63,568 nucleotides of DNA, taken from the IMG/VR virus record IMGVR_UViG_3300036832_001810, positions 1 to 63,568 of that record. The stretch is one strand, 5' to 3'. The position numbers were made by a program, and so were the translations under genes. Below the pieces are notes generated by a model. It was not told the origin of the DNA. It was given only the letters and a program-made list of their open reading frames with translations, and did not search any database. Shown here piece after piece: positions 3,243 to 63,153 of this stretch; the stretch's first letter is position 1, and each line of letters begins with the position of its first letter. This DNA is from a virus. Lineage: Duplodnaviria; Caudoviricetes.

Positions 3243-3243
3243 C

Positions 3244-4613: not shown

Positions 4614-4614
4614 G

Positions 4615-7951: not shown

Positions 7952-8449
7952 TTACGAGGCCGTTTTGCGGCCTTGCAGTTTCCAGTCGGGCTCTACGTTG
8001 AGGACCTGGGCGACGTTGGGAGGCAGGAAATCGGCGACCGTTTTGCCTTCGTTGATGATCTCCTCGGCGTGCTCGTCCTCGATATTTCGGACCCAGGCTG
8101 AGAGGGTGTGGGCGTTGTAGTTGGGCTCGACGAAGTGGCCGAGGCCGGCGGCTTGGAGGGCTTGGCAGACGCGCGCCCGGTCGCCCGCGATTTTGGGGCG
8201 CGCCCATAATTCGCGGCGCAGAAAGATGCTCACCCCCTCAATCGAGATGGAGCGGATGTTGTGGCTTTCGAAGTACTGCATCAGGCGCGGGGTGAGGCGC
8301 TCGACTTCGACCTCCATGGCCTTGAGGCGCTGGTTGAGCTGGCGGCGCTCGTCGATCAGCTCGGCGAAGCGCGCGAAGTCGCGGAAGGCGCTGGTATTGG
8401 GGTCGCTCAGGACCAGGTCGGGTTCGGGGATGGCGGTGGTATCGGACAT
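7952..8449 (-). CDS. Replication-cluster coiled-coil protein
   Basis: Helical ORF between helicase and putative SSB. Confidence 0.65.
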   Translation of the reverse strand: MSDTTAIPEPDLVLSDPNTSAFRDFARFAELIDERRQLNQRLKAMEVEVERLTPRLMQYFESHNIRSISIEGVSIFLRRELWARPKIAGDRARVCQALQAAGLGHFVEPNYNAHTLSAWVRNIEDEHAEEIINEGKTVADFLPPNVAQVLNVEPDWKLQGRKTAS

Positions 8450-23809: not shown

Positions 23810-24159
23810 CAGCGACGCGCGACGAAGTGTTATCGGTGATTCAGCCGGTCGGGTATCACCTGTTGATCCGGCTGCTCTCCCTGGACGAAAAGACCAAGGG
23901 CGGGATTTACCGGCCGGCTGGAACGCAGCAGGCCGAACAGATGGCGACGCAGTTGGGCGAAGTGATTGAGATGGGCGCGAGCGCCTACGCGGACGCGGAG
24001 AAATTCCCCGATGGGCCGTGGTGTGGGCCGGGCGACCACATCATGATGCGCTCTTACTCCGGCACCTCGTTCAAAATCGACGAGCAGGAATATCGGTTGA
24101 TCAACGATGATACGGTAGAGGCGGTCGTCAGGCAGCCCGAGCGTATCTCGCGGGTATAG
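23806..24159 (+). CDS. groES: Phage co-chaperonin, GroES-like
   Basis: PVGYHLLI...EKTKGGI...G..AY.D..KFP.GPWC..GD...YSG...YRLINDD.VEAVV. Confidence 0.85.
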   Translation: MTATRDEVLSVIQPVGYHLLIRLLSLDEKTKGGIYRPAGTQQAEQMATQLGEVIEMGASAYADAEKFPDGPWCGPGDHIMMRSYSGTSFKIDEQEYRLINDDTVEAVVRQPERISRV

Positions 24160-24162
24160 GTT

Positions 24163-25137
24163 ATGGCAGAAGACAAAGACACCATGGCACCGGAAGCCGA
24201 CCGGATCGAAATTGAGATCGAGCCCGAGAACGAGGAGCAGAAGCCGCGCCTGCGCACCGGCGACACCAGCAACCTGGACGTGCGCGACGAGGAGATCTCG
24301 GGCTACGGCAAGGGCGTACAGGACCGCATCAAGAAGCTGCGCTTCGCCTTCCACGAGGAGCGCCGCCAGCGCGAGCAGAAGGAGCGCGACCTGGCCGCCG
24401 CCAACGACTACGCGCAGCGCGTCTTTCGCGAGAACGCAGCGCTCAAAAAGAACGTGCGCGCGAGCGAGCAGGCGGTGGTCCATCAGGCGCTCTCGCGCGC
24501 CGACGCCGAGATCGCGCAGGCCAAGGCCAAGACGCGCGCCGCGCACGAGAGCGGGGTCGCCGACGACATCGTGACCTCGACCGAGGAGCTGGCGCGCGCC
24601 GTGGCCGAGAAGGACCGCTTGAGCATGCTCAAGGAGCCGCCGGCCGAGGAGGCGCAGGCCGCCGAGCCGCCCCGGCCGGCGCCCGAGCCCGACGCCCACA
24701 CCAAGCAATGGTTCGCCAAAAACACCTGGTACGGCAAGCCGGGGGAAGAGGAGCGCTCCGCGTTCGCCATGGGCGTGCATAATAAGCTAGTGGCCCAGGG
24801 CATCAGCGCGGCGAGCAACCCGGAAGTTTACTGGCGCACGATTGACGAGCGCCTGGCCGCGATCTTTCCCGACAAGCATTCGAACGGCAACGGCGACGGC
24901 GCCGAGGAGGGCGAAGGCCCGCGCGAAGCGCCGCGCCGCGAGGAAAGGGAATTCACCAGCTCCCGTCCGCTGGCAGTGGCGGGCGGTACGCGTAGCAATA
25001 CCGGAGCTACGCCCGCTGGCCGCACCCGCGTGATCCGGTTATCAGAGTCGCAGGTGCGGCTGGCGCGCCGCCTGGGCTTGACGCCCGAGCAATACGCGCA
25101 GCAGGTCGCGCTCGAAAGTGAGGCTGCCAGTGCCTGA
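24163..25137 (+). CDS. Capsid scaffolding protein
   Basis: Acidic coiled coil; C-terminal RLSESQVRLARRLGLTPEQYA; upstream of the capsid gene. Confidence 0.75.
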   Translation: MAEDKDTMAPEADRIEIEIEPENEEQKPRLRTGDTSNLDVRDEEISGYGKGVQDRIKKLRFAFHEERRQREQKERDLAAANDYAQRVFRENAALKKNVRASEQAVVHQALSRADAEIAQAKAKTRAAHESGVADDIVTSTEELARAVAEKDRLSMLKEPPAEEAQAAEPPRPAPEPDAHTKQWFAKNTWYGKPGEEERSAFAMGVHNKLVAQGISAASNPEVYWRTIDERLAAIFPDKHSNGNGDGAEEGEGPREAPRREEREFTSSRPLAVAGGTRSNTGATPAGRTRVIRLSESQVRLARRLGLTPEQYAQQVALESEAASA

Positions 25138-25630
25138 AATCAGAACACCGCGTGAGGACCAGACCCGCGCTTCGGAGGCGCGGCCGGCGGCGTGGATGCC
25201 GTCGAATTCACTGCCCGATCCGCATCAACGGCCAGGGAAGAAATTCCGCTGGATTCGCACGTCGGCTGCCGGGCAGTCCGACGCCACCAATGTGTCGCGC
25301 CGGCTCAGGGAAGGATGGGTCCCGGTCAAGGCCGTGGACTATCCCGAGCTGCACATCATGACGGATCGCGACAGCCGCTTCCCCGACTCCATCGAGGTCG
25401 GCGGCCTTTTGCTGTGTACCACGCCCGAGGAAAACGTGCGGGCGCGCAACGAGTACTACCGCACGCAGACGATCAACCAGATGCAGGCGGTGGACTCGCA
25501 ACTCATGGCCGAGGAAGATCCCCGGCTACGCACCATGTATCGGAAGGTGAACTCGAAGACCCGCTTTGGACCGGATGCCCGCAGGGACCCGACCCAGGGC
25601 GCGCAATTGCCCTCGCTCGCGAAGCCGTAA
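25130..25630 (+). CDS. Conserved head-module protein
   Basis: GTG 25130 after GAGG; RWIR...G..D..NV..RLREGW.PV; IEVGGLLL. Confidence 0.75.
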   Translation: MPEIRTPREDQTRASEARPAAWMPSNSLPDPHQRPGKKFRWIRTSAAGQSDATNVSRRLREGWVPVKAVDYPELHIMTDRDSRFPDSIEVGGLLLCTTPEENVRARNEYYRTQTINQMQAVDSQLMAEEDPRLRTMYRKVNSKTRFGPDARRDPTQGAQLPSLAKP

Positions 25631-25746
25631 CTGCACCTTCGCGCTCACAGGCAAGCCAAACACCGACGAGTTCGCCGCGCGGACTGCACAGGATGCGAGA
25701 CCCGCGTGCCCTTCAACCATGTCTTCAAAGACGAGGGAGGAATTTC

Positions 25747-26343
25747 ATGGCGCAAACCGCCAGTCCCTACGGCTTGAGGCCGGTGCAGTTGCTCGGAGGT
25801 CTCCCCTTTGCCGGGGCGATTCGTTCCTTCCCGATGACTCTGAACTCGGCCAAGGCCTTTTTCTTCGGTGATCCGGTGGCCCTGGTCGGTGGGCAGCCCA
25901 CGGTGCTGACCGGGAGCCCGATCACCACCGTGAACGCGAACTCGCCCGTTGGCGTGTTCATGGGCTGCGAATGGCAGGACCCGGTTCGCGGCTTTCTCAA
26001 CGCGCAGTCCTTTCCGGCCAATGGCATCAGTAGCGGTGCCACCAAGGTCAAATTCAAAATCCTCGACTGCCCGACCTGTGTCTTCATGGTCCAGGCCAAC
26101 GGGTCAGTCCCGGCCGCCTCGCTCGGCTTGAACACCGATATCCTCGGTTTCGGCACGGGCAACGCGGCCACCGGCAACAGCCTGGTCGTCGCCGATGCGG
26201 CGGCGGCGGTGACCGCGACCCTGGCGCTCAAGATCATCGGCTTTGTGGACCAGCCCGGCAGTCAGGTCGGCGATCCCTTCACCGATCTATTGGTCATCTG
26301 GAACCAGAACGTCCACCGCTGGGTGGCGCAGGCGGGCTTCTAA
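25747..26343 (+). CDS. Putative capsid decoration/minor capsid protein
   Basis: GGAGG RBS; PYGLRPV, GVFMGC, F.VQA motifs; adjacent to the capsid gene. Confidence 0.7.
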   Translation: MAQTASPYGLRPVQLLGGLPFAGAIRSFPMTLNSAKAFFFGDPVALVGGQPTVLTGSPITTVNANSPVGVFMGCEWQDPVRGFLNAQSFPANGISSGATKVKFKILDCPTCVFMVQANGSVPAASLGLNTDILGFGTGNAATGNSLVVADAAAAVTATLALKIIGFVDQPGSQVGDPFTDLLVIWNQNVHRWVAQAGF

Positions 26344-26355
26344 GGAGATTCAATC

Positions 26356-27267
26356 ATGGCGATTTCAAGAGCACAACTACTCAAAGAATTGATGCCCGGA
26401 TTGAACGCTCTGTTCGGGCTCGAATACAAGCGCTATGCCGAAGAGCACAAGGAAATCTTCGCGATTGAAAATTCCGAGCGCTCCTTCGAAGAGGAAGTGA
26501 AAATCACCGGCTTCGGCCCGGCTCCGGTCAAGCCCGAGGGCGAGGCGATTCACTACGACGATGCGCAAGAGTCCTACGTGGCTCGCTATACGCACCAGAC
26601 CATCGCGGTCGGCTTCTCGATCACCGAGGAGGCCGTGGAGGACAACCTCTACGACTCGCTCTCGGCGCGCTACACCAAGGCCCTCGCCCGTTCGATGGCC
26701 CACACCAAGCAGACCAAGGGCGCGGCGATTCTCAACCAGTCCTTCGATCCGCTCTACCCGATGGGCGACGGCGTCAGCCTCTGCTCCACCGCGCACCCCT
26801 TGGTTATGGGCGGCGTGCAGAACGCCAACACGCCGGCCACCCCCGCCGATTTGAACGAGACCTCGCTCGAAGCGGCGGCCACCACCATCGCGCTCTGGGT
26901 GGATGATCGCGGCCTGCTGGTCGCGGCCAAGCCGCGCAAATTGATCATCCCGGCTGGCCTGGTCTTTACGGCGACGCGCGTCCTGCGCTCGCAGTACCGC
27001 CCCGGCACCGCCGATAACGATGTCAATGCGCTGTACACCAACGGGACCATTCCCGACGGGTACTTCGTCAATCACTACCTGACCGATCCCGATGCCTGGT
27101 GGATCATCACCGACATCCCCAACGGCCTGAAACATTTTGTGCGCGTGCCGCTCAAGACCGACAACGACGGGGATTTCGACACGGGTAACGTCAGGTACAA
27201 AGCGCGCGAGAGATACTCCTTCGGAGCCAGCGACCCCCTTGGCGTCTACGGCTCGCCGGGAGCATAA
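26356..27267 (+). CDS. Major capsid protein (Mu gpT-like, HTVC010P-like group)
   Basis: MAISRAQLLKELMPGLNALFGLEY ... GDFDTGNVRYKARERYSFG.SDPLG.YGSPGA. Confidence 0.92.
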   Translation: MAISRAQLLKELMPGLNALFGLEYKRYAEEHKEIFAIENSERSFEEEVKITGFGPAPVKPEGEAIHYDDAQESYVARYTHQTIAVGFSITEEAVEDNLYDSLSARYTKALARSMAHTKQTKGAAILNQSFDPLYPMGDGVSLCSTAHPLVMGGVQNANTPATPADLNETSLEAAATTIALWVDDRGLLVAAKPRKLIIPAGLVFTATRVLRSQYRPGTADNDVNALYTNGTIPDGYFVNHYLTDPDAWWIITDIPNGLKHFVRVPLKTDNDGDFDTGNVRYKARERYSFGASDPLGVYGSPGA

Positions 27268-35722: not shown

Positions 35723-36823
35723 ATGACGAAAAAAGAAAAGTATCTGTATCGACGCGGCGAGATGTGGTGGGTGAAGATCCCAAGAGGGCCAGGGCTGCGG
35801 CCCTTGTTTGAGTCCACCGGCATCCGGGCGGATGAGAAGAACCCGGACAAGGTGCCCGAAGCGGCGAAGGAATTTCGCGACAGCAAGCTGGTGCAGAAGC
35901 ATCGCAACGAAATGCGAACGACCGGCAATCAGACGGCGACTTGCGGCGAGCTGCTCGATGACCTCATCGCCAGATGGGAAGCGAACGGCAAAGAGTCCTC
36001 GTGCTACTCGCTGAAGAAAGTGGTTGAAGCGCACCTGCGCCCCTCGTTCGGCTCCATTCGCGTGGCACGTCTGACGACTGCGATGCTGGAGGCGTACCGG
36101 ACGAAGCGAGGGAAGATGGGACGCAGCGGCGGGACCATCAACCGCGAGCTGGCCTACTTCCGTATCGCGCTCAAGGACGGCCAGAAAACCACGCCGCCGA
36201 AGGTCCTGGCAATCCCGCACTTCCCGATGGTCAGCGAGGTGGACAACGTCCGCACGGGGTTTCTGAAGCGCGAGGACTACGAGACGCTGTTGTTTGAGCT
36301 GCCAGCCGAAGTGCAGCCCGCGCTAGTGATCGGCTATCACGTTGGCATGCGCTTCACCGAAATCACCAAGCTGACCTGGAAGCACATTCGGCCAGACCGC
36401 AAATTCATCCAGCTTGGCAACCCGGATGTAAAGAACCGTCAGGGCAGACTGATCCCAATCTATGGCGACATGAAGATTGTGATTGAGGAGCTGTGGCGGC
36501 AACACCAAGAGCAATACCGGGACTGCCCCTGGGTCCTGCATCGCAACGGCGTTCGCATCGCGAGCTTCAAGGGCGCCTGGGAGCAGGCGACGATCCGCGC
36601 GGAAGTCGCCAGCCTTCTCTTCCATGACCTGCGCCGCAGCGCCGCGCGCAACATGCAGCAAGCCGGCATCCCGCGCTCCACCATCATGAAGATCATGGGC
36701 CACAAAACGGAATCGATGTTTATCCGCTATCAGATCGTGGACGAGGAAGACATCGCCGCCGCAGGCGAGAAGATGGAAGCGGCAACGCCGACTGTGGTGT
36801 CCATCAACAGCAAGCGAGCCTGA
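35723..36823 (+). CDS. int: Tyrosine integrase
   Basis: GMRFTEI, K, FHDLRRS, GHKT...RY catalytic motifs; TINREL. Confidence 0.95.
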   Translation: MTKKEKYLYRRGEMWWVKIPRGPGLRPLFESTGIRADEKNPDKVPEAAKEFRDSKLVQKHRNEMRTTGNQTATCGELLDDLIARWEANGKESSCYSLKKVVEAHLRPSFGSIRVARLTTAMLEAYRTKRGKMGRSGGTINRELAYFRIALKDGQKTTPPKVLAIPHFPMVSEVDNVRTGFLKREDYETLLFELPAEVQPALVIGYHVGMRFTEITKLTWKHIRPDRKFIQLGNPDVKNRQGRLIPIYGDMKIVIEELWRQHQEQYRDCPWVLHRNGVRIASFKGAWEQATIRAEVASLLFHDLRRSAARNMQQAGIPRSTIMKIMGHKTESMFIRYQIVDEEDIAAAGEKMEAATPTVVSINSKRA

Positions 36824-36882: not shown

Positions 36883-36968
36883 GGTGCGGGCGAGAGGGCT
36901 TGAACCTCCACGGCCTTTCGGCCACCAGATCCTAAGTCTGGCGCGTCTGCCAATTTCGCCACGCCCGC
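36882..36968 (-). tRNA. tRNA-Leu, anticodon TAG, complete with encoded CCA
   Basis: GCGGGCG acceptor stem, TGGCGAAATTGGCAGACGC D arm, CCAGA-CTTAGGA-TCTGG anticodon arm, long variable arm, GTTCAAG T loop, ACCA end. Confidence 0.95.
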
Positions 36969-48983: not shown

Positions 48984-50534
48984 GTGCCCAAATCGAAGCC
49001 CAGCCCGCAGGAGGAGATCGAGTTTTTCGAGAAGTATTTCCGTCACCTGGCGCCGCGCGAGCAGGCGGCCACGCGCCGCGCCATGGCGCAGCTTTTAGGC
49101 GACCCGGAGGGCATCGACAACGTGGAGGAGGCGCGCGAGCGCTTCCTGCCTTTTGTGCGCCACGTCTGGCCCGAGTTCATCGCCGGGCGGCACCACCAGG
49201 TGATGGCCGAGACCTTCGAGCGGATCGCGCGCGGCATGCTCAAGCGCGTGATCATCAACATGGCGCCGCGCCATACGAAAAGCGAGTTCACGAGCTACCT
49301 GCTGCCCGCCTGGTTCTTGGGCAAGCACCCCCGGACCAAGATCCTCGAAGGCTCGCACAAGGTGGAACTGAGCGCGGGCTTCGGCCGCAAGATGCGCAAC
49401 CTGATTGCGTCAGAGCGCTACCAGGAGGTCTTTCCCGGCGTCACGCTTTCGAAGGACAGTAAGGCGACCCATCGCTGGGCGACCCAGCAGGGCGGCGAGT
49501 TCTTCGCCATCGGCACCACCGGCGGCGCGGCCGGGCGCGGCGGCGACCTGGTGATCATCGACGACCCGCACAGTGAGCAGGACGTGCTCAAGAACGCCAA
49601 CGCCAATTTCGACAAGGTGTGGAACTGGTATCTGGCCGGGCCGCGCCAGCGCCTGCAGCCCAGTGCCGCCATCCTCATTGTCATGACCCGGTGGGGTGAA
49701 CGCGATTTGACCGGGATGCTCCTGCAGCAGGCGATTGAGGAGGAGGATGGCGAGCAGTGGGAGGTGATCGAGCTACCCGCTATTCTACCCTCGGGGGAAA
49801 GCCTGTGGCCGGAGTACTGGCCGATTGAGGAGCTGGAACGCACGCGCGCCACGCTCCCGATCTCGCGCTGGGAGGCGCAGTACCAGCAGCACCCGACGAG
49901 CGAGGAGGGCGCCCTCATCAAGCGCGAGTGGTGGCAGGACTGGCGCGAGAGCAACCCGCCCGCCTGCGAGTTCATCGTGCAGAGCTGGGACACGGCCTTT
50001 AGCGAAAAGGCGGTAAGCAATCGCAGCGCCTGCATCACCTGGGGCCTCTTTCGCTACCGCAACGCGGGCGACCCGCCGCGCATCGTGACCGGCATCATGC
50101 TGCTCGACGCCTGGGCCGGCCGCCTCAACTTTCCCGAGCTGAAGCAACAGGCGCGCCGCCTCTACGAGCAGTGGACGCCCGACTGCCTGCTGGTCGAGGG
50201 GCGCGCCACCGGCAAACCCCTGCAGCAGGAGCTGTGGAAGATGGGTATCCCGGTCAGTGACACGGTGCCGGTGCGCGGCTCGGACAAAATCGTCCGCACC
50301 AACGCGGTCGCCGACCTGTTCAGTACGGGCACCGTGTGGGCGCCGCTCGGCCGGCGCTGGGTCGAAGAGGTGCGCGAGGAGATGGCCTGCTTCCCGAACG
50401 GCAACGCCGACGACCTGCACGATGCCGCCGTCCACGGCCTCCTGCGCCTGCGCCAGGGCGGCCTGATCCGCATTGCGTCGGACGAAAGCGAGGAGCAGGA
50501 CCACGAGCCGCGCGCGGCCAGAGCCTACTACTAA
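48984..50534 (+). CDS. terL: Terminase large subunit
   Basis: IINMAPRHTKSE Walker A, IIDDPH, IVMTRW, QSWDTAF, FPNG..DD..D nuclease motifs. Confidence 0.95.
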   Translation: MPKSKPSPQEEIEFFEKYFRHLAPREQAATRRAMAQLLGDPEGIDNVEEARERFLPFVRHVWPEFIAGRHHQVMAETFERIARGMLKRVIINMAPRHTKSEFTSYLLPAWFLGKHPRTKILEGSHKVELSAGFGRKMRNLIASERYQEVFPGVTLSKDSKATHRWATQQGGEFFAIGTTGGAAGRGGDLVIIDDPHSEQDVLKNANANFDKVWNWYLAGPRQRLQPSAAILIVMTRWGERDLTGMLLQQAIEEEDGEQWEVIELPAILPSGESLWPEYWPIEELERTRATLPISRWEAQYQQHPTSEEGALIKREWWQDWRESNPPACEFIVQSWDTAFSEKAVSNRSACITWGLFRYRNAGDPPRIVTGIMLLDAWAGRLNFPELKQQARRLYEQWTPDCLLVEGRATGKPLQQELWKMGIPVSDTVPVRGSDKIVRTNAVADLFSTGTVWAPLGRRWVEEVREEMACFPNGNADDLHDAAVHGLLRLRQGGLIRIASDESEEQDHEPRAARAYY

Positions 50535-56008: not shown

Positions 56009-56037
56009 AATTTAACAAATCCGCTTGTTGTTGTCAA
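56009..56037 (-). promoter_or_regulatory. Sigma70-type early promoter P1
   Basis: TTGACA-ACAACAAGCGGATTTGT(17)-TAAATT. Confidence 0.8.
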
Positions 56038-56387
56038 GGACGGTCGCCTTTCTGTTCCTTCACCCACTCCATCAGCGACTCGGCGTCGCAGGTGTCGATG
56101 ATGTCGTCCAGGCCGTCCAGATCGCCCTTGCCGATATACAACTCAATCACGCGCAGAGCGTTATCCAGCGTGCAGCGCGCGGTGATGGCCTTGTCGATCA
56201 GCCCTTGCAGGCCCAGCAGGTCGCCGCCTTCCAGGCAGAGTTGGCACTCGTACCGCTGCCTTTTCTCTGAGAAAGCGATCACCGTGGTGACATGCGGCGG
56301 GTCCTGGTGCGGCTTGTCGTGCTCCGCGCCGCAGCACTGGCAGTAGGTCCCGGCAATCAGCCTGGTTTTCGGTTTGGTTCTGGTCAT
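56034..56387 (-). CDS. Hypothetical Zn-binding protein (follows HH1)
   Basis: AAGGA RBS; CxxC pairs. Confidence 0.7.
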   Translation of the reverse strand: MTRTKPKTRLIAGTYCQCCGAEHDKPHQDPPHVTTVIAFSEKRQRYECQLCLEGGDLLGLQGLIDKAITARCTLDNALRVIELYIGKGDLDGLDDIIDTCDAESLMEWVKEQKGDRP

Positions 56388-56408
56388 GGGGTACTGGGAT
56401 TCCTTGGG

Positions 56409-56460
56409 TCCCGACGCCTCACGGCGTTTCGCTAGACTTTCACTAGCTCGTCAGGGGGTT
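56409..56460 (-). ncRNA. Hammerhead ribozyme type I, HH1 (predicted cut 56413/56412)
   Basis: CCCC-CUGACGA-GCUAG UGAAAGU CUAGC-GAAA-CGCC GUGA GGCG-UC^GGGA. Confidence 0.9.
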
Positions 56461-56464
56461 AGGG

Positions 56465-57049
56465 TTATTCCTCCTCCTCGCTGGCAATCTGGAGAGTTGA
56501 GTGCAGGACGCTGCACTCGTTGCAGAACAGGGAAAGCGCCCCATGGACCGCGCAGTAAAAGGCGCGCAGACCGGCCTCCGGGTGGCATTCGCTCATCATC
56601 TCCACGGGATGAGGATCGTCGGGATGGTCCGGGCATTGCAGCTCCTCGTCGAGCACCTCGCGCACTACGGGCAGGGCGGTCTCCAGCGGGTTGGCGCACA
56701 AGGGGCAGTTGGCATCGTTGAGTTTGCCCTGGGCGTCGATCCTGGCCTCGACCTTCATCTCATCCGCCGAGAATGCGCTGACGATCTCGATCACCGTAAC
56801 CGGATTGATCTGGTAACTGCGGGCGACCTCGACAATGCCCTGGGCGATCTGCGGGCTATTCGCAATCGCCTGCGCGATTGCCTCGCGGTCGGTCGCGTCG
56901 CGCCCGGCCTCGCTCAACTCGCGTGAGATCCGCTTCACATTGGCGGCCATCTTCAACGCTATCGCGCGTGCGATGGCCGCAATTCTTTCTTCCGGCTCGC
57001 CGTACTTCTCCGCGAGCGCTTTGACTTTGGCTTCATCTAACACAGTCAT
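56465..57049 (-). CDS. Hypothetical protein with C-terminal Cys/His cluster (follows HH2)
   Basis: AAAGGA RBS; sole ORF between HH2 and HH1. Confidence 0.7.
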   Translation of the reverse strand: MTVLDEAKVKALAEKYGEPEERIAAIARAIALKMAANVKRISRELSEAGRDATDREAIAQAIANSPQIAQGIVEVARSYQINPVTVIEIVSAFSADEMKVEARIDAQGKLNDANCPLCANPLETALPVVREVLDEELQCPDHPDDPHPVEMMSECHPEAGLRAFYCAVHGALSLFCNECSVLHSTLQIASEEEE

Positions 57050-57071
57050 GGGGTACTGGGATTCCTTTCTC

Positions 57072-57134
57072 TCCCGACGCCGTCGCTTCCCAGCGGGGCG
57101 TTTCGCCGGACTCTCACCGGCTCGTCAGGGGGAT
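57072..57134 (-). ncRNA. Hammerhead ribozyme type I, HH2 (cut 57076/57075)
   Basis: CCCC-CUGACGA-GCCGG UGAGAGU CCGGC-GAAA-CGCC..CGCU GGGA AGCG..GGCG-UC^GGGA. Confidence 0.9.
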
Positions 57135-58157
57135 ATGGCCTTTCTCCTTGGCGCGACGCTCGATCAGATGCTCGATGCCGTCGGCCAACTGCGCCACGCG
57201 GTTGGCCTCGCGCACGATCTCGGCTGGATCGACCGCGCCGGGGCGCGCGTCCTGGTAGGCGAAGTCGGTCCAGATCTTCAGGCGGCCCACGGCCTCGTCC
57301 AGGCGCCGCACCTGGGAGCGGATCAGCTTCTCGGTGGTGGTCATGAGGCAACTCCCTTGCGTTTCTCGAAGTCCGGGGCGGTAGAGTTCTCCGGCGGGCA
57401 ACCCTCGTTCCACTCCTGCTCGACTTCGCCCATGCCCAGGTTGTAGACGATGGCCCCGCTGGCCAGGAGCGCATAGAACGTGCGCTCCACGCTCCACAGG
57501 GCAGTGAGCGCGTTCTTCAGGCTCCGGCCCTCGTAAATGGGGTACTGCGGATGACGGTCGTCCGTCACCCGCACGTAGTATTTCTTCATGCGGCCTCCTT
57601 GCGGCGTTTCAGGTTGGGGTTCTTGAGCGCGATCTCGGTGCCGAACTCGCAGCCGATGCCCCGGCGATACCACTCGGGCTTGGTCACGTCCTTAGCGGCT
57701 TTCTTGTTCTGCTGGCGCAGCCACGCGGGCGGCTTGGTGGCGAACGTCATCACGCCCAGGTAGCCCTCGCTCTCGAAGTAGCCCTGGACGAAAGCCCAGC
57801 CGATGCCGTTCATGGTGATGTAGATGCGGTCGCCTACCTTGGGCAACGGGAAGTCGCCGCTCCACTTGAGCAGATTGCCGTCGTCCTCGCGGTAGGTGGG
57901 GAAGACCGCGTCGTCGAGCTTGCGCGGCTTACTCATCTCGCCGGTCGCTACCGGCTCGGGAATAAAGAAGCGCTCCTTCATGCGTGGACGACCTCCCAGG
58001 CACTGAAGCCCGTCACAAAGCGGCTGGTCACTTCGAGCACGTAGGCGGCCTGGCCATCGGCGGCCGTCTGCCGCGCGAAGGTGATGGCCTCGGCTTCGGT
58101 GTCGAAGGCCGAACGCTTCACGTTCTGGTCAACGACGACGTAGGTAATGGTTGTCAT
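57114..58157 (-). other. Four coupled small ORFs (57978-58157, 57586-57981, 57341-57589, 57114-57344)
   Basis: ATGA overlaps; first start lies directly after the HH3 leader. Confidence 0.65.
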
Positions 58158-58177
58158 GGGGTTGGGATTCCTTTGGG

Positions 58178-58230
58178 TCCCGACGCCTCGCGGCGTTTCG
58201 CCCGACTTGCACGGGCTCGTCAGGGGGTTA
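58178..58230 (-). ncRNA. Hammerhead ribozyme type I, HH3 (cut 58182/58181)
   Basis: UAACCCC-CUGACGA-GCCCG UGCAAGU CGGGC-GAAA-CGCC GCGA GGCG-UC^GGGA. Confidence 0.9.
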
Positions 58231-59059
58231 TCGGTCCCGGTGCTGTTCCTCCCCGTCGCGGGTCGCGCAATCGTTCCAGGGCCGACCGCACTCGCAGATC
58301 TCGGGATTCTCGGGCTCGACCTCAATGACCTCGGCGGTGTAGCAGCCCTCGCCGCCACGGTCCTCCACATCCTCAGAGGTCAGCCCAAGGTCTTCCAGAT
58401 TGCGCTCCTCGGCCCAGTGATCCGCGAAGGCCTGCGCCTCGGCCTCGGTATCGAATGCCTGTGGGAAAGTGCCGCAAGCCTCGCTTCCGTTGTCCCAGTT
58501 CACGTAGTACGGCATCAGAGTAATCCCTTCCGGCCTTCCGGCGAATTCGCATAGGCGTCGTCGCCCGACTCCAGGCGCTGCGCCTCGGTGTCGAGGTTCT
58601 TCAGCATCTGGCTCATGGCCTCGCGCAGCCGCTCGATGGCCTCCACCGTAGTGGCGCTATTGGCGGCGATGGTCAGGGGCGCGAACCAGCGCTGTACCTC
58701 GCGCATCAGCTCGGCGCGGTCACTGCGCCCGTCGAACATGCGTAGCGCGGCGCCCTGGATGCCGGCCTCGCGCAGCATCGTCTTGAACATGTGCTCGTAG
58801 TTGGGGGTGATGGTGATGTGTTCCATGGCTAGTTCACCGCCTTCTTCTGGCCCAGGCCCTTGCGGATGATCTCTTTGGGCGCGGCGTGGCGCGGGTAGTT
58901 GAGGCTGCCCATGCCGTCCACCGTGGTCATGTTGTGCGCGATGTAGGCCAGATACTCCTTGGGGCGGTAGCTCAGCTTCAGGGCCTCGGCCAGCGTGTCG
59001 CCCTTGGCCCAGCAGCCGTTCGAGCCAATGACCAGGATCTTCAGGTCTGTGATCTTCAT
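58228..59059 (-). other. Three small ORFs (58829-59059, 58515-58826, 58228-58515)
   Basis: Abutting ORFs between HH4 and HH3; the last is very acidic. Confidence 0.65.
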
Positions 59060-59082
59060 GGGGTGTTACTCCTTGGGATGAT

Positions 59083-59145
59083 TCCCGACGCGCCGTCTCT
59101 CGACGGGGCGTTTCGCCCGACTCTCACGGGCTCGTCAGGGGGTTA
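59083..59145 (-). ncRNA. Hammerhead ribozyme type I, HH4 (cut 59087/59086)
   Basis: UAACCCC-CUGACGA-GCCCG UGAGAGU CGGGC-GAAA-CGC.CCGUC GAGA GACGG.GCG-UC^GGGA. Confidence 0.9.
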
Positions 59146-60043
59146 GTCGCCCAGGTACACGGGCTGGTAGTTTTCGAGCGAGTCCACCCAGACGTGCTTG
59201 ACGCCTTCCTCGGCAGCCATGGCGTAGGCTGCGCTCGACGGCGTCCAGTGGACCGTGCCGTCGGTCGAGTAGTAGTCGCCCCAACCAAAGCCGGAGTAAT
59301 AGAACAGGCCGGGGAAGGGGTTGAGCGTGCGCGCCGGGGTGCGCAGCGTGTCGGTGGCGGAATAGATTTTGTTTTGCGCCATCCTAGTCGCCCTCCTCTA
59401 ATTGGTGATGGCCCTCGATCACGCCGATCACCTCGTAGGCGACGCCTTCCTTGTAGCGCGGCGGTTTCGCGCTCTGCTCGTCGATGGCTTTCAGCTTGGC
59501 GTCGTAGGCCGTGGGCGCTTCCAGGCGGTTCACGTAGGCGAAGTGATCGTCCAGGTACAGACTGATTACGGTGTAGGGTTTCACTTACCTGCCTCCTCTC
59601 CCAGCACGCGGCCCGTGACCCGCACGGCGTAGGGGTCGATAGCGCGAATCATGGTGCAGGCATGAAGCGATTCGGACGGCACGCCCAAGGCGCGCACCTT
59701 CTCTCCGTCCAGCTTGAGATGGTCGGAGCCCGTGCGGACGGCGTAGCCGCACTCGGTCAGGTGGCCGTAGGCGGTGGCAAAAGCCTCCTCGCGTGTGGCC
59801 GCTTCAATCACGAGGACACGCGGATAGGTGTGGGCGTAAGGCGTGTCCTGGTACGTCACTTTCCATTTCGTCATGGGGTTACTCTTTCTCCTGTTCTTTG
59901 GCGCAGGCCTCGCAGCCAATGCGCTTGTCGATGTAAAGCTGCTGGGTCTTGACTTCATCCGCCGTGCGCGTCAGCTTGTGGCCGCAGTCGAGCAGAATGC
60001 GGTACTCGCGCCCGAAGCGGGTCATGCGAACGATTGTGCTCAT
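59143..60043 (-). other. Four small ORFs (59879-60043, 59581-59874, 59384-59584, 59143-59382)
   Basis: Abutting chain; 59879-60043 (54 aa, own translation) starts 9 nt after the P2 -10 box. Confidence 0.6.
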
Positions 60044-60052
60044 CGAAATTCC

Positions 60053-60081
60053 ATTCTAGCAAATGCGCTTTTTGTTGTCAA
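60053..60081 (-). promoter_or_regulatory. Sigma70-type early promoter P2
   Basis: TTGACA-ACAAAAAGCGCATTTGC(17)-TAGAAT. Confidence 0.85.
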
Positions 60082-60112
60082 GCAGGAGGGGTGAAATCCC
60101 CTCCGCTCGCGC

Positions 60113-60412
60113 TTAGTAGCGCGCCGCCAGTCGCGGCACAAAGTGGCCTTCGAGCTTGCCCGTGTCGCGGTTGAGGTGGCGGCGGATACCAAACACGTCG
60201 TGCGCGAGGTTGCTGTCATCCGTCGCCAGCAACCGTTCCAGGTCCAGGGCGCAGCCGTTGGCATGGCACGCGGTCAGGTCCATCAGGATGGTTGATTGCG
60301 GGTAGTCAACGTGCAGCCGCCGCGCCAGCGCCGCCGCGCGTGCGGTAATCTCGCCGATCAGCGCGTAGTCGCTCGCGCTCACGGTCCAGTTGATCTGAGA
60401 CTTGTCTGTCAT
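60113..60412 (-). CDS. DUF6874-like phage protein (follows HH5)
   Basis: MDLTACHANGC.LDLERLL..DD.N.AHDV.GI.RHLNR.TGKL...FVPR; AAAGGA RBS. Confidence 0.7.
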   Translation of the reverse strand: MTDKSQINWTVSASDYALIGEITARAAALARRLHVDYPQSTILMDLTACHANGCALDLERLLATDDSNLAHDVFGIRRHLNRDTGKLEGHFVPRLAARY

Positions 60413-60432
60413 TGGGTTGGGATTCCTTTCAG

Positions 60433-60496
60433 TCCCGACGCCAACGCCTCCCGGCGTGAGCGTTTCGGCCGACTTGCACGGCCTCATCAGGGGGTT
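60433..60496 (-). ncRNA. Hammerhead ribozyme type I, HH5 (cut 60437/60436)
   Basis: AACCCC-CUGAUGA-GGCCG UGCAAGU CGGCC-GAAA-CGC..ACGCC GGGA GGCGU..GCG-UC^GGGA. Confidence 0.9.
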
Positions 60497-60862
60497 CTAC
60501 TTGCCGGTGATCGCGGCGCAGGCGTCCTTCACGGCGCTGCCCAAGGCGCGGGTCGAAGACGACGTAATCATGTCGCCTTCTTTGTTGAAGACGGCCATCT
60601 TGTTGTCGCGGCGCAGATAGCCCTTGCCGCCCTCGTGATCGAGCGTGACGACGTAATCCGCGCGGTCGCGGTTGTTGGTCACAATCACGGCGGGGCAGCT
60701 TGCGCCGAATGTCTTGTAGATCTCGGCGGTCTGCGGTCGCGCTCCACCGGCGCGGCCTACCATCTGCCAGGACGTAGAGTCGGTGATGAAGACGCGTGGC
60801 TTATCCTGGGCGGAAAGGCCGGCGACGGCAATCAATGCGGTAAGCGTCAGTTGCTTTGTCAT
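60497..60862 (-). CDS. Secreted small protein with signal peptide (follows HH6)
   Basis: MTKQLTLTALIAVAGLSA signal; GGARPQTAEI.KTF...CP...ADYVV.LDHEGGKG. Confidence 0.75.
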   Translation of the reverse strand: MTKQLTLTALIAVAGLSAQDKPRVFITDSTSWQMVGRAGGARPQTAEIYKTFGASCPAVIVTNNRDRADYVVTLDHEGGKGYLRRDNKMAVFNKEGDMITSSSTRALGSAVKDACAAITGK

Positions 60863-60883
60863 GGGGTTGTTGGGATTCCTTGG

Positions 60884-60936
60884 TCCCGACGCCTCGCGGC
60901 GTTTCGCCCAACTTTCATGGGCTCGTCAGGGGGTTA
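60884..60936 (-). ncRNA. Hammerhead ribozyme type I, HH6 (cut 60888/60887)
   Basis: UAACCCC-CUGACGA-GCCCA UGAAAGU UGGGC-GAAA-CGCC GCGA GGCG-UC^GGGA. Confidence 0.9.
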
Positions 60937-61050
60937 CCAGCTCCAGGCCCACTTCACCAGCAGGGTTGCGCCGACAATTACGGCGGCTAAGAACGCGAGA
61001 TAGCCTACGGTGACAATGAGGCATCCGCAGCCGTCGTCGGACTGACTCAT
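60934..61050 (-). CDS. Small single-TM protein (38 aa)
   Basis: ATGA overlap, AAGGA RBS; GCGCLIVTVGYLAFLAAVIVGATLLVKW. Confidence 0.55.
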   Translation of the reverse strand: MSQSDDGCGCLIVTVGYLAFLAAVIVGATLLVKWAWSW

Positions 61051-61763
61051 GCCGCGTCCTTGCCTTTCTCCTCGCGCTCCTGTTCCAGGTTGCGGAGGAA
61101 GCCCTTGACGCCGCGCTCGGAACTGTCGATCAGGTCGTAGGCCAGGATCAGGTCGCGGCACACCTCGAAGGCGCGGTCGAGGATGTAGCTGTCGTCGCCC
61201 AACTCCCACTTGAGCAGGCCGGACGTGCGGGCGTGGCAAGTATTGTCCCGATCCTCGACGTACTTGCGAACGGTGTGCATCAGGGCGAACGACTCCATGC
61301 CCCGGTAGTGATCCTTGGCGAGCACGCGGAAAGCGCCGTCGATAGAGCCGTCGTGATAGCTCGTAATCTCCTCGTAGCGCTTGTCGTGGCGCTTCTCGGG
61401 GTTGCTGGTCACCTTGCGCTCACTGCGCGAGTACCAGCGGGTCTTGCCCTCCTTGAATTTCACGCTGAAGGCGAAGTCCAGGTCGGCCTTCGACGGGATG
61501 CCGCCCGTGATGGCGTAGCGTGCGTCATTGCGCAGGTCCTGGTCGGTCAGCATGGCCTGGGCAAGCGAGAACAGGTAATCAGCCATGCGCTGAATGGAGA
61601 TCGGCATGGCGGGAGAATGCGCGGTCATGCCGTCGCCGTAGGTGTCGTAGACGCGCATGTGCTCGTTGACGGCGCAGAAACCGACGCCGTGGAAATTGTT
61701 GTCGTAGGTGTAAGCCACCTTGTCCGGCGAAGCGATGCTCGCGAAACGGTGCGTTCGACTCAT
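61047..61763 (-). CDS. Hypothetical protein (follows HH7)
   Basis: GGAG RBS; 238-aa ORF. Confidence 0.7.
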   Translation of the reverse strand: MSRTHRFASIASPDKVAYTYDNNFHGVGFCAVNEHMRVYDTYGDGMTAHSPAMPISIQRMADYLFSLAQAMLTDQDLRNDARYAITGGIPSKADLDFAFSVKFKEGKTRWYSRSERKVTSNPEKRHDKRYEEITSYHDGSIDGAFRVLAKDHYRGMESFALMHTVRKYVEDRDNTCHARTSGLLKWELGDDSYILDRAFEVCRDLILAYDLIDSSERGVKGFLRNLEQEREEKGKDAA

Positions 61764-61787
61764 GGGGTGTTACTCCAGTGGGAAATA

Positions 61788-61850
61788 TCCCGACGCGCCA
61801 TCTCTCGACGGTGCGTTTCGCCCGACTTGCACGGGCTCATCAGGGGGTTA
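61788..61850 (-). ncRNA. Hammerhead ribozyme type I, HH7 (cut 61792/61791)
   Basis: UAACCCC-CUGAUGA-GCCCG UGCAAGU CGGGC-GAAA-CGC A CCGUC GAGA GAUGG C GCG-UC^GGGA. Confidence 0.9.
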
Positions 61851-62081
61851 GGCGCTCGGCACGATCTCGAATTGCTGGCCAGCGGAATTCTCCAGCCGCC
61901 CGTTGGGCATCTTCGAGAGCGTGAATCTCGCCCGGAAGCGGGAGTCCGGCGCGCAGTTGTCCAGGTGGATCGCGGCGTCGCTTTCGGCGGTCACGTAGTA
62001 GCGCAGGCCCTGGCCGGTGTTGGGCACCGGCGCGTTGGGCGTCACGGTGCGGATGCGGATGATTTTGGTCGGCGTCTTCAT
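61848..62081 (-). CDS. Hypothetical protein
   Basis: GGAG RBS; stop abuts HH7. Confidence 0.65.
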   Translation of the reverse strand: MKTPTKIIRIRTVTPNAPVPNTGQGLRYYVTAESDAAIHLDNCAPDSRFRARFTLSKMPNGRLENSAGQQFEIVPSA

Positions 62082-62100
62082 GGTTTCTCCGTTGGGTTGT

Positions 62101-62118
62101 GGGGGCCTTGCGGCCCCC
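62101..62118 (-). promoter_or_regulatory. Intergenic GNRA hairpin GGGGGCC-GCAA-GGCCCCC without U-tract
   Basis: Perfect 7-bp stem after TAACCCC, between two co-oriented genes. Confidence 0.6.
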
Positions 62119-62126
62119 GGTTGGGG

Positions 62127-62963
62127 TTAGCTCAGGAGCTTGCGCATCTCCTCGGCCAGGGTCCAGAGGGCCTTGTTGAGCTTGGTGTTCTCGCTGATGC
62201 CTTCGACCGGGCGGGTGCGCAGTCTACGCCGCGTCTCCGCGTTGCGGCCCCGGATGCCGCCATTGAGCAGCGCTTCCTGGGTGCGGTTGAAGGTGTTCCA
62301 GAGCGTGGGCGTATTGTCCTCGACGCGGCGCGGCGTCAGGACCTGTTGGGGCGTGATGGGCGCCTCGCCCTCGTCGTAGCGAAGCTGGAGCGCGGCGGTG
62401 GCGAAGACCTCGGCCTGGGGCGCTTCGAGGCGCAGCGCCTGGAAGCTCTGCACGCTGTCGATCACCTTGGGCATCTGGTCGATCACCTCGAACGAAGCCT
62501 CGATCACGCCATCCGCGTCGCCCCGGTGCGGGACGCTGATGTGGTTGACCACGCCGTCGCCGACCACCATGCCGTTGGTGCAGACGAGGCGAAACAGGCC
62601 GCTATCGAGCTTGTAGCTACTCATGCCGTCGTGCGAGTTGGTCAGGACCAGCTCGGGGTAGACCACGCCCAACTGGCGGGTCAGAGGCTGATCGCCCTGG
62701 CGCATGTCGCGGAAGCGGATCAGGTGTTTGGTGAAGTCGCCCTTCCCGGCGATCCGGGTGCGGGACTGCATGGCTTGGACGGGCTGGAAGCCTTCCTCGC
62801 GCATGCGCTCGACCACGGCGATGGTGGGGATGAACGCGTACTTCTCGCTCATCTTGTGCCATGGCTCCATGGCGAACACGCTCGGGGCATAAGCCCGGAG
62901 CTGATCGTTGGTCAGCGCCGTCATGGAACGGACACTGTGACGCATTTGGGTAGCGATGTTCAT
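62127..62963 (-). CDS. DUF932/DUF945-family protein
   Basis: APSVFA..., Y.FIPT, FTKH.IRFR, NSHDG.SSY....G.FRLVCTNG, RR.ED...LW..FN..QE, N.KLNKALW. Confidence 0.85.
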   Translation of the reverse strand: MNIATQMRHSVRSMTALTNDQLRAYAPSVFAMEPWHKMSEKYAFIPTIAVVERMREEGFQPVQAMQSRTRIAGKGDFTKHLIRFRDMRQGDQPLTRQLGVVYPELVLTNSHDGMSSYKLDSGLFRLVCTNGMVVGDGVVNHISVPHRGDADGVIEASFEVIDQMPKVIDSVQSFQALRLEAPQAEVFATAALQLRYDEGEAPITPQQVLTPRRVEDNTPTLWNTFNRTQEALLNGGIRGRNAETRRRLRTRPVEGISENTKLNKALWTLAEEMRKLLS

Positions 62964-63023
62964 GGGATGTTTTTCTCTCTCTCTCTCGTTTCGTTTGGCG
63001 GCGTTTCTTGCGCCGTTGAACCT

Positions 63024-63052
63024 AGACTAGCAAATCCGGTTTTTGTTGTCAA
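63024..63052 (-). promoter_or_regulatory. Sigma70-type early promoter P3
   Basis: TTGACA-ACAAAAACCGGATTTGC(17)-TAGTCT. Confidence 0.8.
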
Positions 63053-63081
63053 TAGGACTTGGGGTGAAACGGTTCTTTTTC

Positions 63082-63153
63082 TCCCAAATTGCGGCGCAAT
63101 TCGCGCAATCGCCGCAATTTTCGCCCAACTTTCATGGGCTCGTCAGGGGGTTA
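63082..63153 (-). ncRNA. Hammerhead ribozyme type I variant, HH8 (UUU triplet; cut 63086/63085)
   Basis: UAACCCC-CUGACGA-GCCCA UGAAAGU UGGGC-GAAA-AUUGCGGCG...CGCCGCAAU-UU^GGGA. Confidence 0.8.

What the first reader, a model, noticed from the sequence alone, without database searches (positions are those of the whole stretch)
56385..63153. Eight hammerhead ribozymes punctuate the phage early operon at gene junctions
Seen: eight copies on the coding (minus) strand within 6.8 kb, each with the hammerhead core CUGA(C/U)GA ... GAAA ... UH. Stem II covaries (GCUAG/CUAGC, GCCGG/CCGGC, GCCCG/CGGGC, GGCCG/CGGCC, GCCCA/UGGGC), loop II is always U-GNRA-GU, and stem III varies in length but always pairs. 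Each sits at the end of one gene, and seven are followed within about 25-30 nt by an SD and ATG. Established: this is type I hammerhead topology, which cleaves to give 5'-OH and 2',3'-cyclic phosphate ends. Inference: a protein-free mRNA processing system that cuts the early polycistron into separately stabilised, separately translated units. Isolated phage-associated hammerheads are known, but I do not recall a systematic gene-punctuating array like this. Caveat: stem I is only about 3 bp (CCC/GGG).
Basis: partly seen in the sequence, partly recalled or inferred. Interest (0 to 1): 0.95.

Follow-up and report, generated by a model that had tools for sequence, protein, structure and literature searches.

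The report
Hammerhead ribozyme array in a phage
Eight self-cutting RNA motifs (hammerhead ribozymes) sit just after stop codons in a block of small phage genes and probably chop long messages into gene-sized pieces, an arrangement already described for prophages in 2011.

Summary
A core pattern finds 8 matches, all on the minus strand between 56.4 and 63.2 kb, against 0.01 expected by chance. All eight carry the full hammerhead core, G10.1-C11.1, A15.1-U16.1 and H17 (C in 7, U in 1). Loop II is always U-GNRA-GU. Stems II and III show compensatory changes. Stem I is only CCC/GGG and never varies in the window, but it covaries in a model-fitted alignment of 98 distinct relatives.

Seven copies are followed 24-28 nt later by an AUG. 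The eighth sits upstream of a sigma-70-like promoter.

Rfam's curated models do not reach their gathering scores on any window copy.

The window is a whole temperate-phage record. Related uncultured phage records carry similar arrays of 9, 9, 8 and 6 copies.

The most likely function is co-transcriptional self-cleavage. It would leave the ribozyme on the 3' end of the upstream mRNA and a 5'-OH hairpin leader on the downstream one. Cleavage itself was not tested.

The idea is not new: Perreault et al. 2011 described and tested clustered prophage hammerheads. I rate this a new, unusually dense member of a known kind.

The parts
63082..63152 (-). HH8. Type I hammerhead with a 10-bp stem III and H17 = U. 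Predicted cut between 63086 and 63085. It follows the TAA of ORF 63309-63151 and lies upstream of promoter P1; no AUG within 60 nt.
   Evidence: (67.3 bits)
61788..61849 (-). HH7. Predicted cut 61792|61791. Follows the TAA of the 77-aa ORF; AUG of the 238-aa ORF 28 nt after the cut.
   Evidence: (82.2 bits)
60884..60935 (-). HH6. Predicted cut 60888|60887. Follows the TAA of the 38-aa ORF; AUG 25 nt after the cut.
   Evidence: (75.6 bits)
60433..60496 (-). HH5. Predicted cut 60437|60436. Follows the TAG of the 121-aa ORF; AUG of the DUF6874 gene 24 nt after the cut.
   Evidence: (75.7 bits)
59083..59144 (-). HH4. Predicted cut 59087|59086. Follows the TAA of the 79-aa ORF; AUG 27 nt after the cut.
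   Evidence: (83.5 bits)
58178..58229 (-). HH3. Predicted cut 58182|58181. Follows the TAA of the 95-aa ORF; AUG 24 nt after the cut.
   Evidence: (76.0 bits)
57072..57134 (-). HH2. Predicted cut 57076|57075. ORF 57344-57114 runs into it and stops at a UGA in loop II; AUG 26 nt after the cut.
   Evidence: (80.8 bits)
56409..56460 (-). HH1. Predicted cut 56413|56412. Lies 10 nt after the TAA of the 194-aa ORF; AUG 25 nt after the cut.
   Evidence: (72.8 bits)
56396..56412 (-). Example of the GGGA...UCCC hairpin at the very 5' end of the predicted 3' product. It reuses the 3' strand of stem I. The equivalents are at 61780-61791, 60872-60887, 60419-60436, 59075-59086, 58164-58181 and 57058-57075.
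   Evidence: this hairpin is in the MFE fold of 7 of 7 products; shuffled controls also pair the first bases in 62% of cases on average.
63024..63052 (-). P1, promoter-like TTGACA-N17-TAGTCT, preceded by TTTCACCCC. Its -10 element was too weak for the consensus scan; it was found by likeness to P2 and P3.
   Evidence: not listed
60053..60081 (-). P2, promoter-like TTGACA-N17-TAGAAT with TG (11 of 12 matches).
56009..56037 (-). P3, promoter-like TTGACA-N17-TAAATT with TG (10 of 12 matches), just downstream of the array.
59872..59881 (-). Gene junction without a hammerhead that reads TAACCCCATG. This equals the two CCCC flanks of a cassette fused together (an 'empty site').

Best explanation

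Proposed mechanism, all inferred from here on:
- Each ribozyme folds as it leaves RNA polymerase and cuts after H17.
- Because stem I is the open stem, the whole ribozyme stays on the upstream mRNA as a structured 3' end with a 2',3'-cyclic phosphate, a few bases past an intact stop codon.
- The downstream mRNA starts with 5'-OH-GGGA.
- Once the 3-bp stem I falls apart, GGGA pairs with a nearby UCCC. This forms a hairpin at the first base of the new mRNA, just ahead of the Shine-Dalgarno sequence and AUG.
- The result is gene-sized or few-gene mRNAs with standard ends, much like the engineered RiboJ insulator.
- HH8, and two equivalent copies in a related phage, instead cut read-through transcripts just upstream of a promoter.

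Shown here: the motifs, their covariation, their positions and their conservation as arrays. Not shown: cleavage, the RNA ends and any effect on stability or translation.
For: Motif and chance:
- 8 matches against 0.01 expected, all on the coding strand.
- The core, G10.1-C11.1, C2.1-G1.1, A15.1-U16.1 and H17 are intact in 8 of 8. This meets the acceptance rules quoted from Perreault 2011.

Structure:
- 98.1% of cells are paired. 8 of 13 pairs changed on both sides, and 0 of 500 shuffles reached this. Slid controls pair 28-46% of cells.
- G-U pairs in stem III fit an RNA of this strand.
- In 98 distinct relatives aligned to my model, all three stem I pairs show both-side changes. The pair next to the core reads CG 70, UA 11, GC 7, AU 6.
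- A 3-bp stem I is the commonest class among parsed relatives, 35 of 75.

Position:
- Every copy is at a gene end, and the AUG lies 24-28 nt after the cut in 7 of 8.

Conservation as a system:
- A related 66-kb phage record has 9 copies in 6.5 kb, although gene order is shuffled.
- Unrelated-looking records with 46% and 69% GC have 6 copies in 3.2 kb and 8 in 3.4 kb, with the same stop codon, ribozyme, leader, SD, AUG layout.
- Locus L059 has 9 copies.

Downstream hairpin:
- It is in the MFE fold of 7 of 7 window products.
- In G007 the hairpin partner changes with stem I: GGUGG pairs with CCACC.

Other:
- The scan found no intrinsic-terminator-like site on the minus strand inside the array.
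- Precedent: clustered prophage hammerheads cleave in vitro and in E. coli. RiboJ is a hammerhead plus a downstream hairpin.
Against: - No window copy reaches an Rfam gathering score. The best is 26.8 bits against 48.5, and only as a Hammerhead_3 alignment. Only 4 of 8 copies appear at all at E up to 10.
- Among about 40 related copies in six loci, only one passes Hammerhead_1 (36.2 against 34 bits).
- Stem I is 3 bp and invariant in the window, so the window itself gives no covariation for it.
- In 5 of 7 precursor MFE folds the GGGA/UCCC hairpin replaces stem I.
- RNAalifold pairs core bases CCUGAC with GUCGGG instead of drawing a plain stem I. Competing folds could therefore slow or block cleavage.
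- The 5'-hairpin statistic is weak: 27 of 31 products pair their first bases, but shuffles do so in 62% of cases on average, and the AT-rich array G006 mostly lacks the hairpin.
- HH8 has the poorer UUU cleavage triplet.
- No RNA data exist for this phage.
- The alignment used for stem I covariation (A2) was fitted to the model and so leans towards it.
Confidence: 0.75

Rival explanations
1. The elements are intergenic structured repeats that keep a hammerhead-like shape but do not cleave to a useful extent. They would act as folded 3' stabilisers, protein-binding sites or DNA-level recombination linkers between gene cassettes.
For: - Stem I is only 3 bp and competes with the downstream hairpin.
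- Rfam models fail to reach their gathering scores.
- Gene order between the window and G001 is shuffled around the repeats.
- An 'empty' junction TAACCCCATG exists, and all TAACCCC and CCCCATG words on the minus strand lie in the array region.
- Two G001 copies carry a U15.1-A16.1 swap, which I recall as inactivating in minimal ribozymes.
Against: - All catalytic-core positions are intact in 8 of 8 copies while the stems drift with compensation. This is hard to explain without selection for catalysis.
- The same core is kept in arrays at 46%, 64% and 69% GC.
- Published clustered prophage hammerheads do cleave.
- The title of Tabler et al. 1994 states that a three-nucleotide helix I suffices for full activity. 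I saw only the title, in a reference list; the paper is not held.
Confidence: 0.08
2. Cleavage is real, but its main purpose is RNA joining or mobility. Every copy has the same stem I and cleavage-site sequence, so any 5'-OH GGGA end can re-pair with any ribozyme-bearing 3' end. That would allow ribozyme- or RtcB-mediated circularisation or re-assortment of gene-sized RNAs.
For: - CCC/GGG and GUC|GGGA are invariant across 7 of 8 copies in the window and 6 of 9 in G001, while stems II and III vary.
- Hammerhead cleavage is chemically reversible (established knowledge).
- Perreault 2011 raised spliced or circular products as a possibility.
Against: - Perreault 2011 report that they could not detect spliced or circular products.
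- A 3-bp stem I and the competing 5' hairpin favour product release over re-ligation.
- The invariance of stem I is also explained by the three-way constraint among CCC, GGGA and UCCC.
Confidence: 0.05
3. Cleavage is real but mainly lowers or uncouples expression. It would serve as the 3'-end maker in a region without terminators. It would expose some fragments to decay, setting different levels for neighbouring genes, rather than stabilising each unit.
For: - The scan found no terminator-like site on the minus strand inside the array.
- HH8 and two G001 copies sit just upstream of promoters with no gene start after them.
- The review PMC6765202 says processing could give transcripts of different stability or translation efficiency.
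Against: - The conserved leader with hairpin, SD and AUG after 7 of 8 copies points to a role in starting the downstream message, not only in ending the upstream one.
- This rival overlaps the best explanation and differs mainly in the sign of the effect.
Confidence: 0.1

Closest known systems
Clustered prophage hammerhead ribozymes (Perreault et al. 2011, PMC3088659; sections 6 and 13 and matched passages read)
   Same: Several hammerheads flank single genes or short blocks of mostly hypothetical genes in a temperate phage. The authors proposed processing of long phage transcripts into gene- or operon-length mRNAs. Their examples lie near anti-restriction-type early genes (ardA); here the neighbours include DUF932.
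   Different: The tested published cases were triple arrangements. Here there are 8 copies in 6.8 kb, with relatives carrying 9, 9, 8 and 6. I could not see their Figure 3 or supplements, so I do not know their largest cluster. I saw no mention, in the parts I read, of the standard leader with a 5'-terminal hairpin, the placement upstream of promoters or the uniform 3-bp stem I.
Rfam Hammerhead_1 (RF00163), type I hammerhead
   Same: Same core, same open stem I topology. One related array copy passes its threshold.
   Different: The window copies score below threshold. I infer this is because stem I is 3 bp and stem III is long and variable.
RiboJ synthetic insulator (sTRSV hammerhead plus a 23-nt hairpin; passages of PMC8794103)
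   Same: Self-cleavage removes upstream RNA and leaves a short hairpin at the new 5' end just ahead of the ribosome-binding site.
   Different: RiboJ is an engineered part built from a plant satellite ribozyme. Here the design is natural, repeated eight times, and the hairpin reuses one strand of stem I.
Type I hammerheads in 5' UTRs of fungal and plant RNA viruses (PMC13725137, abstract read)
   Same: A type I hammerhead lies directly upstream of an open reading frame, and self-cleavage is tied to translation initiation.
   Different: Those are eukaryotic RNA viruses using cap-independent translation. This is a DNA phage with Shine-Dalgarno-led genes.

Membership tests
Hammerhead ribozyme | Conserved core C3 U4 G5 A6 N7 G8 A9, G12 A13 A14, A15.1-U16.1, H17 | tested here: met
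   8 of 8 copies. N7 is C in 6 and U in 2; H17 is C in 7 and U in 1. Criteria as quoted.
Hammerhead ribozyme | Three helices around the core with no mispair next to it (10.1-11.1, 1.1-2.1, 15.1-16.1) | tested here: met
   G-C, C-G and A-U in 8 of 8 copies; 98.1% of all stem cells are paired.
Hammerhead ribozyme | Helices supported by compensatory changes | tested here: met
   In the window, 4 of 5 pairs of stem II and 4 of 5 of stem III changed on both sides; stem I is invariant. In 98 distinct relatives, 12 of 13 pairs, including all 3 of stem I, changed on both sides. That alignment was fitted to the model.
Hammerhead ribozyme, type I | Stem I open; stems II and III closed by loops | tested here: met
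   Stem III is capped by GNRA loops in 7 of 8 copies.
Hammerhead ribozyme (Rfam RF00163 / RF00008 / RF02276) | Score at or above the curated gathering threshold | tested here: not met
   No window copy at gathering. The best is 26.8 bits against 48.5. One related copy in G007 passes RF00163, 36.2 against 34 bits.
Hammerhead ribozyme | Site-specific self-cleavage giving 5'-OH and 2',3'-cyclic phosphate ends | not testable with these tools
   No RNA run was listed; needs bench work.
Hammerhead ribozyme (fast natural forms) | Tertiary contact between loop II and stem I | tested here: inconclusive
   Loop II U-GNRA-GU is conserved, and A or AA precedes stem I, but no pairing partner could be assigned.
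Clustered prophage hammerheads (Perreault 2011) | Several hammerheads flanking genes or short gene blocks in a (pro)phage | tested here: met
   The 8 copies delimit blocks of 1-5 ORFs, the longest crossing promoter P2. The record carries an integrase, terminase, primase and helicase.

The most novel reading that the evidence does not exclude
The repeated unit is not just a ribozyme. It is a portable intergenic cassette, from CCCC through the ribozyme, GGGA hairpin leader and SD to CCCC-AUG. At the RNA level it would work as a one-way switch: stem I before the cut, a 5'-terminal hairpin after it. At the DNA level it would spread and be lost by recombination between its short direct repeats, shuffling early genes between phages. 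Because all cut sites and stem I strands are identical, cut RNAs could also be rejoined into circles or new combinations.
Probability: 0.12. Interest if true: 0.75.

Novelty: new member of a known kind. Interest (0 to 1): 0.5.

Why it matters
The role of bacterial and phage hammerheads is still called largely elusive in a 2019 review (passages of PMC6765202). Dense arrays like this one, with a uniform ribozyme-leader design kept across phages of very different base composition, are good material for testing one question. Does self-cleavage set the ends, stability and translation of phage messages, as the engineered RiboJ part does?

The arrays also show that the curated Rfam models miss most of this short-stem-I subfamily: 0 of 8 copies here reach a gathering score, and 1 of about 40 in related loci. 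Phage hammerheads are therefore probably under-counted.

Tried and rejected
- Type III reading of HH2. Rfam Hammerhead_3 scored 26.8 bits at E = 0.023 and pairs upstream coding sequence as stem III. Rejected: it is below threshold, fits one copy only, and the type I fold is shared by all eight.
- Other weak Rfam hits (mir-434, pRNA, S15 leader, Twister-sister, adapt33; E 0.34-7.9). Taken as chance.
- Link to DUF932. 45 of 46 viral loci encoding a relative of the DUF932 protein have no model hit at E up to 0.01. The one with hits is G001. The array is therefore not tied to that gene.
- Strict lineage pattern in bacterial genomes: 0 matches. The general loop-II pattern gave 51 stretches in many phyla, each with a single match. 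My simple parser closed only 75 of 103 distinct pattern hits as type I hammerheads; the other 28 were left unparsed and may differ in topology or have mismatches.
- RNA evidence: no RNA holder was listed for the region, and read laying was therefore not used.
- The 5'-hairpin statistic proved weak against shuffles, so it is used only as supporting detail.
- Phage collection search: only short matches. One of them led to a single hammerhead in cultured Ralstonia phage C22. No cultured phage with an array was found in that search.
- Searches for later papers on phage hammerhead arrays found nothing beyond Perreault 2011 and reviews.

Full report
**What is there.** The window is a complete IMG/VR virus record of 63,568 bases (CheckV 99%).
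- It is a temperate tailed phage. It carries an integrase (35723-36823, +) next to a tRNA (36885-36968, -), a large terminase (48984-50534, +), a major-head-like protein, a 1474-aa virion protein with a transglycosylase domain, and a helicase (8407-9864, -) and primase (4615-7125, -).
- The minus-strand stretch from 63.5 down to about 53 kb is packed with small ORFs of high third-position GC.
- Of the ten largest ORFs between 56.0 and 63.0 kb, only two have a family above Pfam's own cut-off: DUF932 (62127-62963) and DUF6874 (60113-60412). Seven have none at all in Pfam, and eight have none in PHROGs.

**The observation.** The core pattern CTGAYGAG-N13-19-CGAAA occurs 8 times, always on the minus strand, between 56427 and 63146. 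Shuffles gave 0.01 on average, and none of 100 reached 8.
- Read on the coding strand, each copy runs in this order:
  - (UA)A-CCCC, then CUGAYGA;
  - a 5-bp stem II capped by U-GNRA-GU;
  - GAAA, then a stem III of 5 to about 11 pairs, capped by a GNRA loop in 7 of 8 copies;
  - U-H, the cut site, then GGGA.
- On the eight copies, 98.1% of stem cells pair. 8 of 13 pairs show changes on both sides, and no shuffle of 500 reaches any of the five measures. Sliding the partners drops pairing to 28-46%.
- Stem I is three invariant C-G pairs.
- A covariance model built from the eight copies scores them at 67-83 bits. Nothing else in the genome scores above 13.9 bits.

**Negative and awkward results.**
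- Rfam's curated models find no hammerhead at their gathering scores.
- In E-value mode only 4 of 8 copies appear. They appear as partial Hammerhead_3 alignments of 17.6-26.8 bits against a threshold of 48.5.
- In six related loci holding about 40 copies, just one reaches the Hammerhead_1 threshold, 36.2 against 34 bits.
- RNAalifold on the eight copies recovers stems II and III. In place of stem I it pairs core bases CCUGAC with GUCGGG.
- In 5 of 7 thermodynamic folds of the uncut region, a downstream GGGA/UCCC hairpin takes the 3' strand of stem I.
- These programs cannot score the hammerhead's tertiary core. Competing folds nonetheless remain a real concern for activity.

**Is the 3-bp stem I credible?** The loop-II subtype is widespread. 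There are 53 stretches in viral contigs, 51 in bacterial and archaeal genome contigs, and 34 metagenome stretches with the CCC flank.
- My simple parser closed 75 of 103 distinct hits as type I hammerheads. Stem I is 3 bp in 35 of them, 4 bp in 6 and 5 bp in 26.
- Stem I takes many sequences, including CCT/AGG, ACCTA/TAGGT, TCCA/TGGA and GCGGA/TCCGC.
- In 98 distinct sequences aligned to the model, all three stem I pairs show compensatory changes. The pair next to the core reads CG 70, UA 11, GC 7, AU 6. Overall pairing is 98.9%, against 31-45% when the partners are slid.
- That alignment is fitted to the model and leans its way.
- A 1994 paper title states that a three-nucleotide helix I suffices for full activity. 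I saw only the title in a reference list, and the paper is not held.

**Context in the window.**
- Five copies begin 4 nt after a TAA. One follows TAG-AA and one follows TAA plus 10 nt. HH2 holds the UGA stop of ORF 57344-57114 in its loop II.
- Seven copies are followed by an AUG 24-28 nt after the cut.
- In all seven, the predicted 3' product begins with a GGGA-N4-10-UCCC hairpin. The AAGGA(A/G) Shine-Dalgarno lies in its loop or just after it, followed in 6 of 7 by CCCC-AUG.
- The region is not one operon. Three near-identical promoter-like sites (TTGACAACAA.AA....ATTTG.TA...) lie at 63052, 60081 and 56037.
- HH8 lies upstream of the first promoter and has no gene start after it.
- The scan found no terminator-like site on the minus strand inside the array.

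**Relatives.**
- G001, a 66-kb virus record, shares the DUF932 protein at 90% identity. It has 9 model hits in 6.5 kb.
  - Six are close to the window's design, and two of these are again followed by TTTCACCCC-TTGACA promoters.
  - Three are variants with a U inserted after A9, and two of those also carry U15.1-A16.1.
  - Twelve window proteins have relatives in G001, but their order within and between ribozyme-bounded blocks differs.
- The other 45 DUF932-encoding viral loci have no hit.
- Arrays also occur in records that look unrelated:
  - G006 has 46% GC and 6 copies in 3.2 kb.
  - G007 has 69% GC and 8 copies in 3.4 kb.
  - Locus L059 has 9 copies, 8 of them within 3.3 kb.
  - A metagenome contig has 4.
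- By eye in the printed G006 and G007 sequences, a stop codon abuts or closely precedes stem I in most copies. A conserved leader with a strong SD and a start codon follows.
- In G007 the two copies whose stem I is CCACC/GGUGG also have CCACC ahead of the SD, so the 5' hairpin covaries with stem I.
- As a bare statistic the 5' hairpin is weak. 27 of 31 products pair their first bases, shuffles do so in 62% of cases on average, and the AT-rich G006 mostly does not.

**Mechanism proposed.** See Best explanation for the steps.
- Type I topology keeps the stop codon and the whole ribozyme on the upstream fragment. That fragment therefore ends in a compact structure with a cyclic phosphate.
- The downstream fragment starts with 5'-OH. 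From established knowledge of RNase E, RppH and RNase J, such an end does not stimulate 5'-end-dependent decay.
- A short stem I, together with a competing hairpin, would favour product release over re-ligation.
- This copies the logic of the engineered RiboJ insulator, a hammerhead plus a hairpin ahead of the RBS.
- All of this is inferred; no RNA run could be listed.

**Known or new.**
- Perreault et al. [quoted passage not shown] They proposed processing of long phage transcripts. They showed cleavage of three tandem arrangements in vitro and of the A. tumefaciens one in E. coli. They did not detect spliced or circular products.
- A 2019 review repeats the processing idea and calls the biology largely elusive.
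- Type II hammerheads near phage-like genes were shown to be active in Desulfovibrio cells in 2021.
- Type I hammerheads in the 5' UTRs of RNA viruses were tied to translation initiation in 2026 (abstract only).
- What this case may add:
  - the number and density of copies;
  - the uniform ribozyme-leader cassette with a hairpin that reuses stem I;
  - the copies placed just upstream of promoters;
  - the 'empty' junction TAACCCCATG at 59881-59872, which hints at gain and loss of cassettes;
  - the poor sensitivity of the Rfam models for this subfamily.
- I could not see Perreault's figures or supplements, so some of these points may already be in print.

Noticed in passing
window 59872-59881 (-): A gene junction without a ribozyme reads TAACCCCATG, the fused flanks of a cassette. 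All 8 TAACCCC and all 7 CCCCATG words on the minus strand lie between 56.4 and 63.2 kb. This suggests cassette gain or loss between short direct repeats.
   Followed up: partly
window 62095-62129 (-): After the DUF932 gene, TAACCCC is followed not by a hammerhead but by a GNRA-capped hairpin, GGGGGCC-GCAA-GGCCCCC, and then the next gene's SD and AUG. It may be a different 3'-end or processing element, or a cassette remnant.
   Followed up: no
window 63052, 60081, 56037 (-): Three near-identical promoter-like sites share about 25 bases beyond the -35 hexamer, and two are preceded by TTTCACCCC. The same ribozyme, TTTCACCCC, TTGACA order occurs twice in G001. TTTCACCCC may be a regulator site.
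   Followed up: partly
window 57114-57134 (-): ORF 57344-57114 reads through stem I and the core of HH2 and stops at a UGA in loop II. A translating ribosome would therefore unfold this ribozyme.
   Followed up: no
L077 (G001) 5965-6019, 6313-6378, 6892-6945: Three variant hammerheads have a U inserted after A9. Two of them also have U15.1-A16.1 in place of the normally required A15.1-U16.1. They are either decayed copies or natural core variants worth testing.
   Followed up: no
L059 5977-12695; L199 (G007) 2990-6427; L198 (G006) 24035-27249 in record coordinates; L203 6584-9841: Other uncultured phage or metagenome contigs carry dense arrays of the same kind: 9, 8, 6 and 4 copies.
   Followed up: partly
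L234 8823-8878 (Ralstonia phage C22, OR538033.1): A cultured phage has one hammerhead of this subfamily (65 bits, stem I CCG/CGG). It starts at the last bases of CDS C22_00044 and is not annotated in the record.
   Followed up: partly
window 36885-36968 (-) and 35723-36823 (+): A tRNA with a long variable arm (54.9 bits) sits 60 bases from the integrase gene. It may mark the attachment site.
   Followed up: no
L012, L013, L021-L026 and similar viral loci: In a large CCU/AGG subgroup of this hammerhead family, the 3' strand of stem I (AGGA) looks like the Shine-Dalgarno sequence itself. Cleavage would then free the SD at the very 5' end.
   Followed up: no
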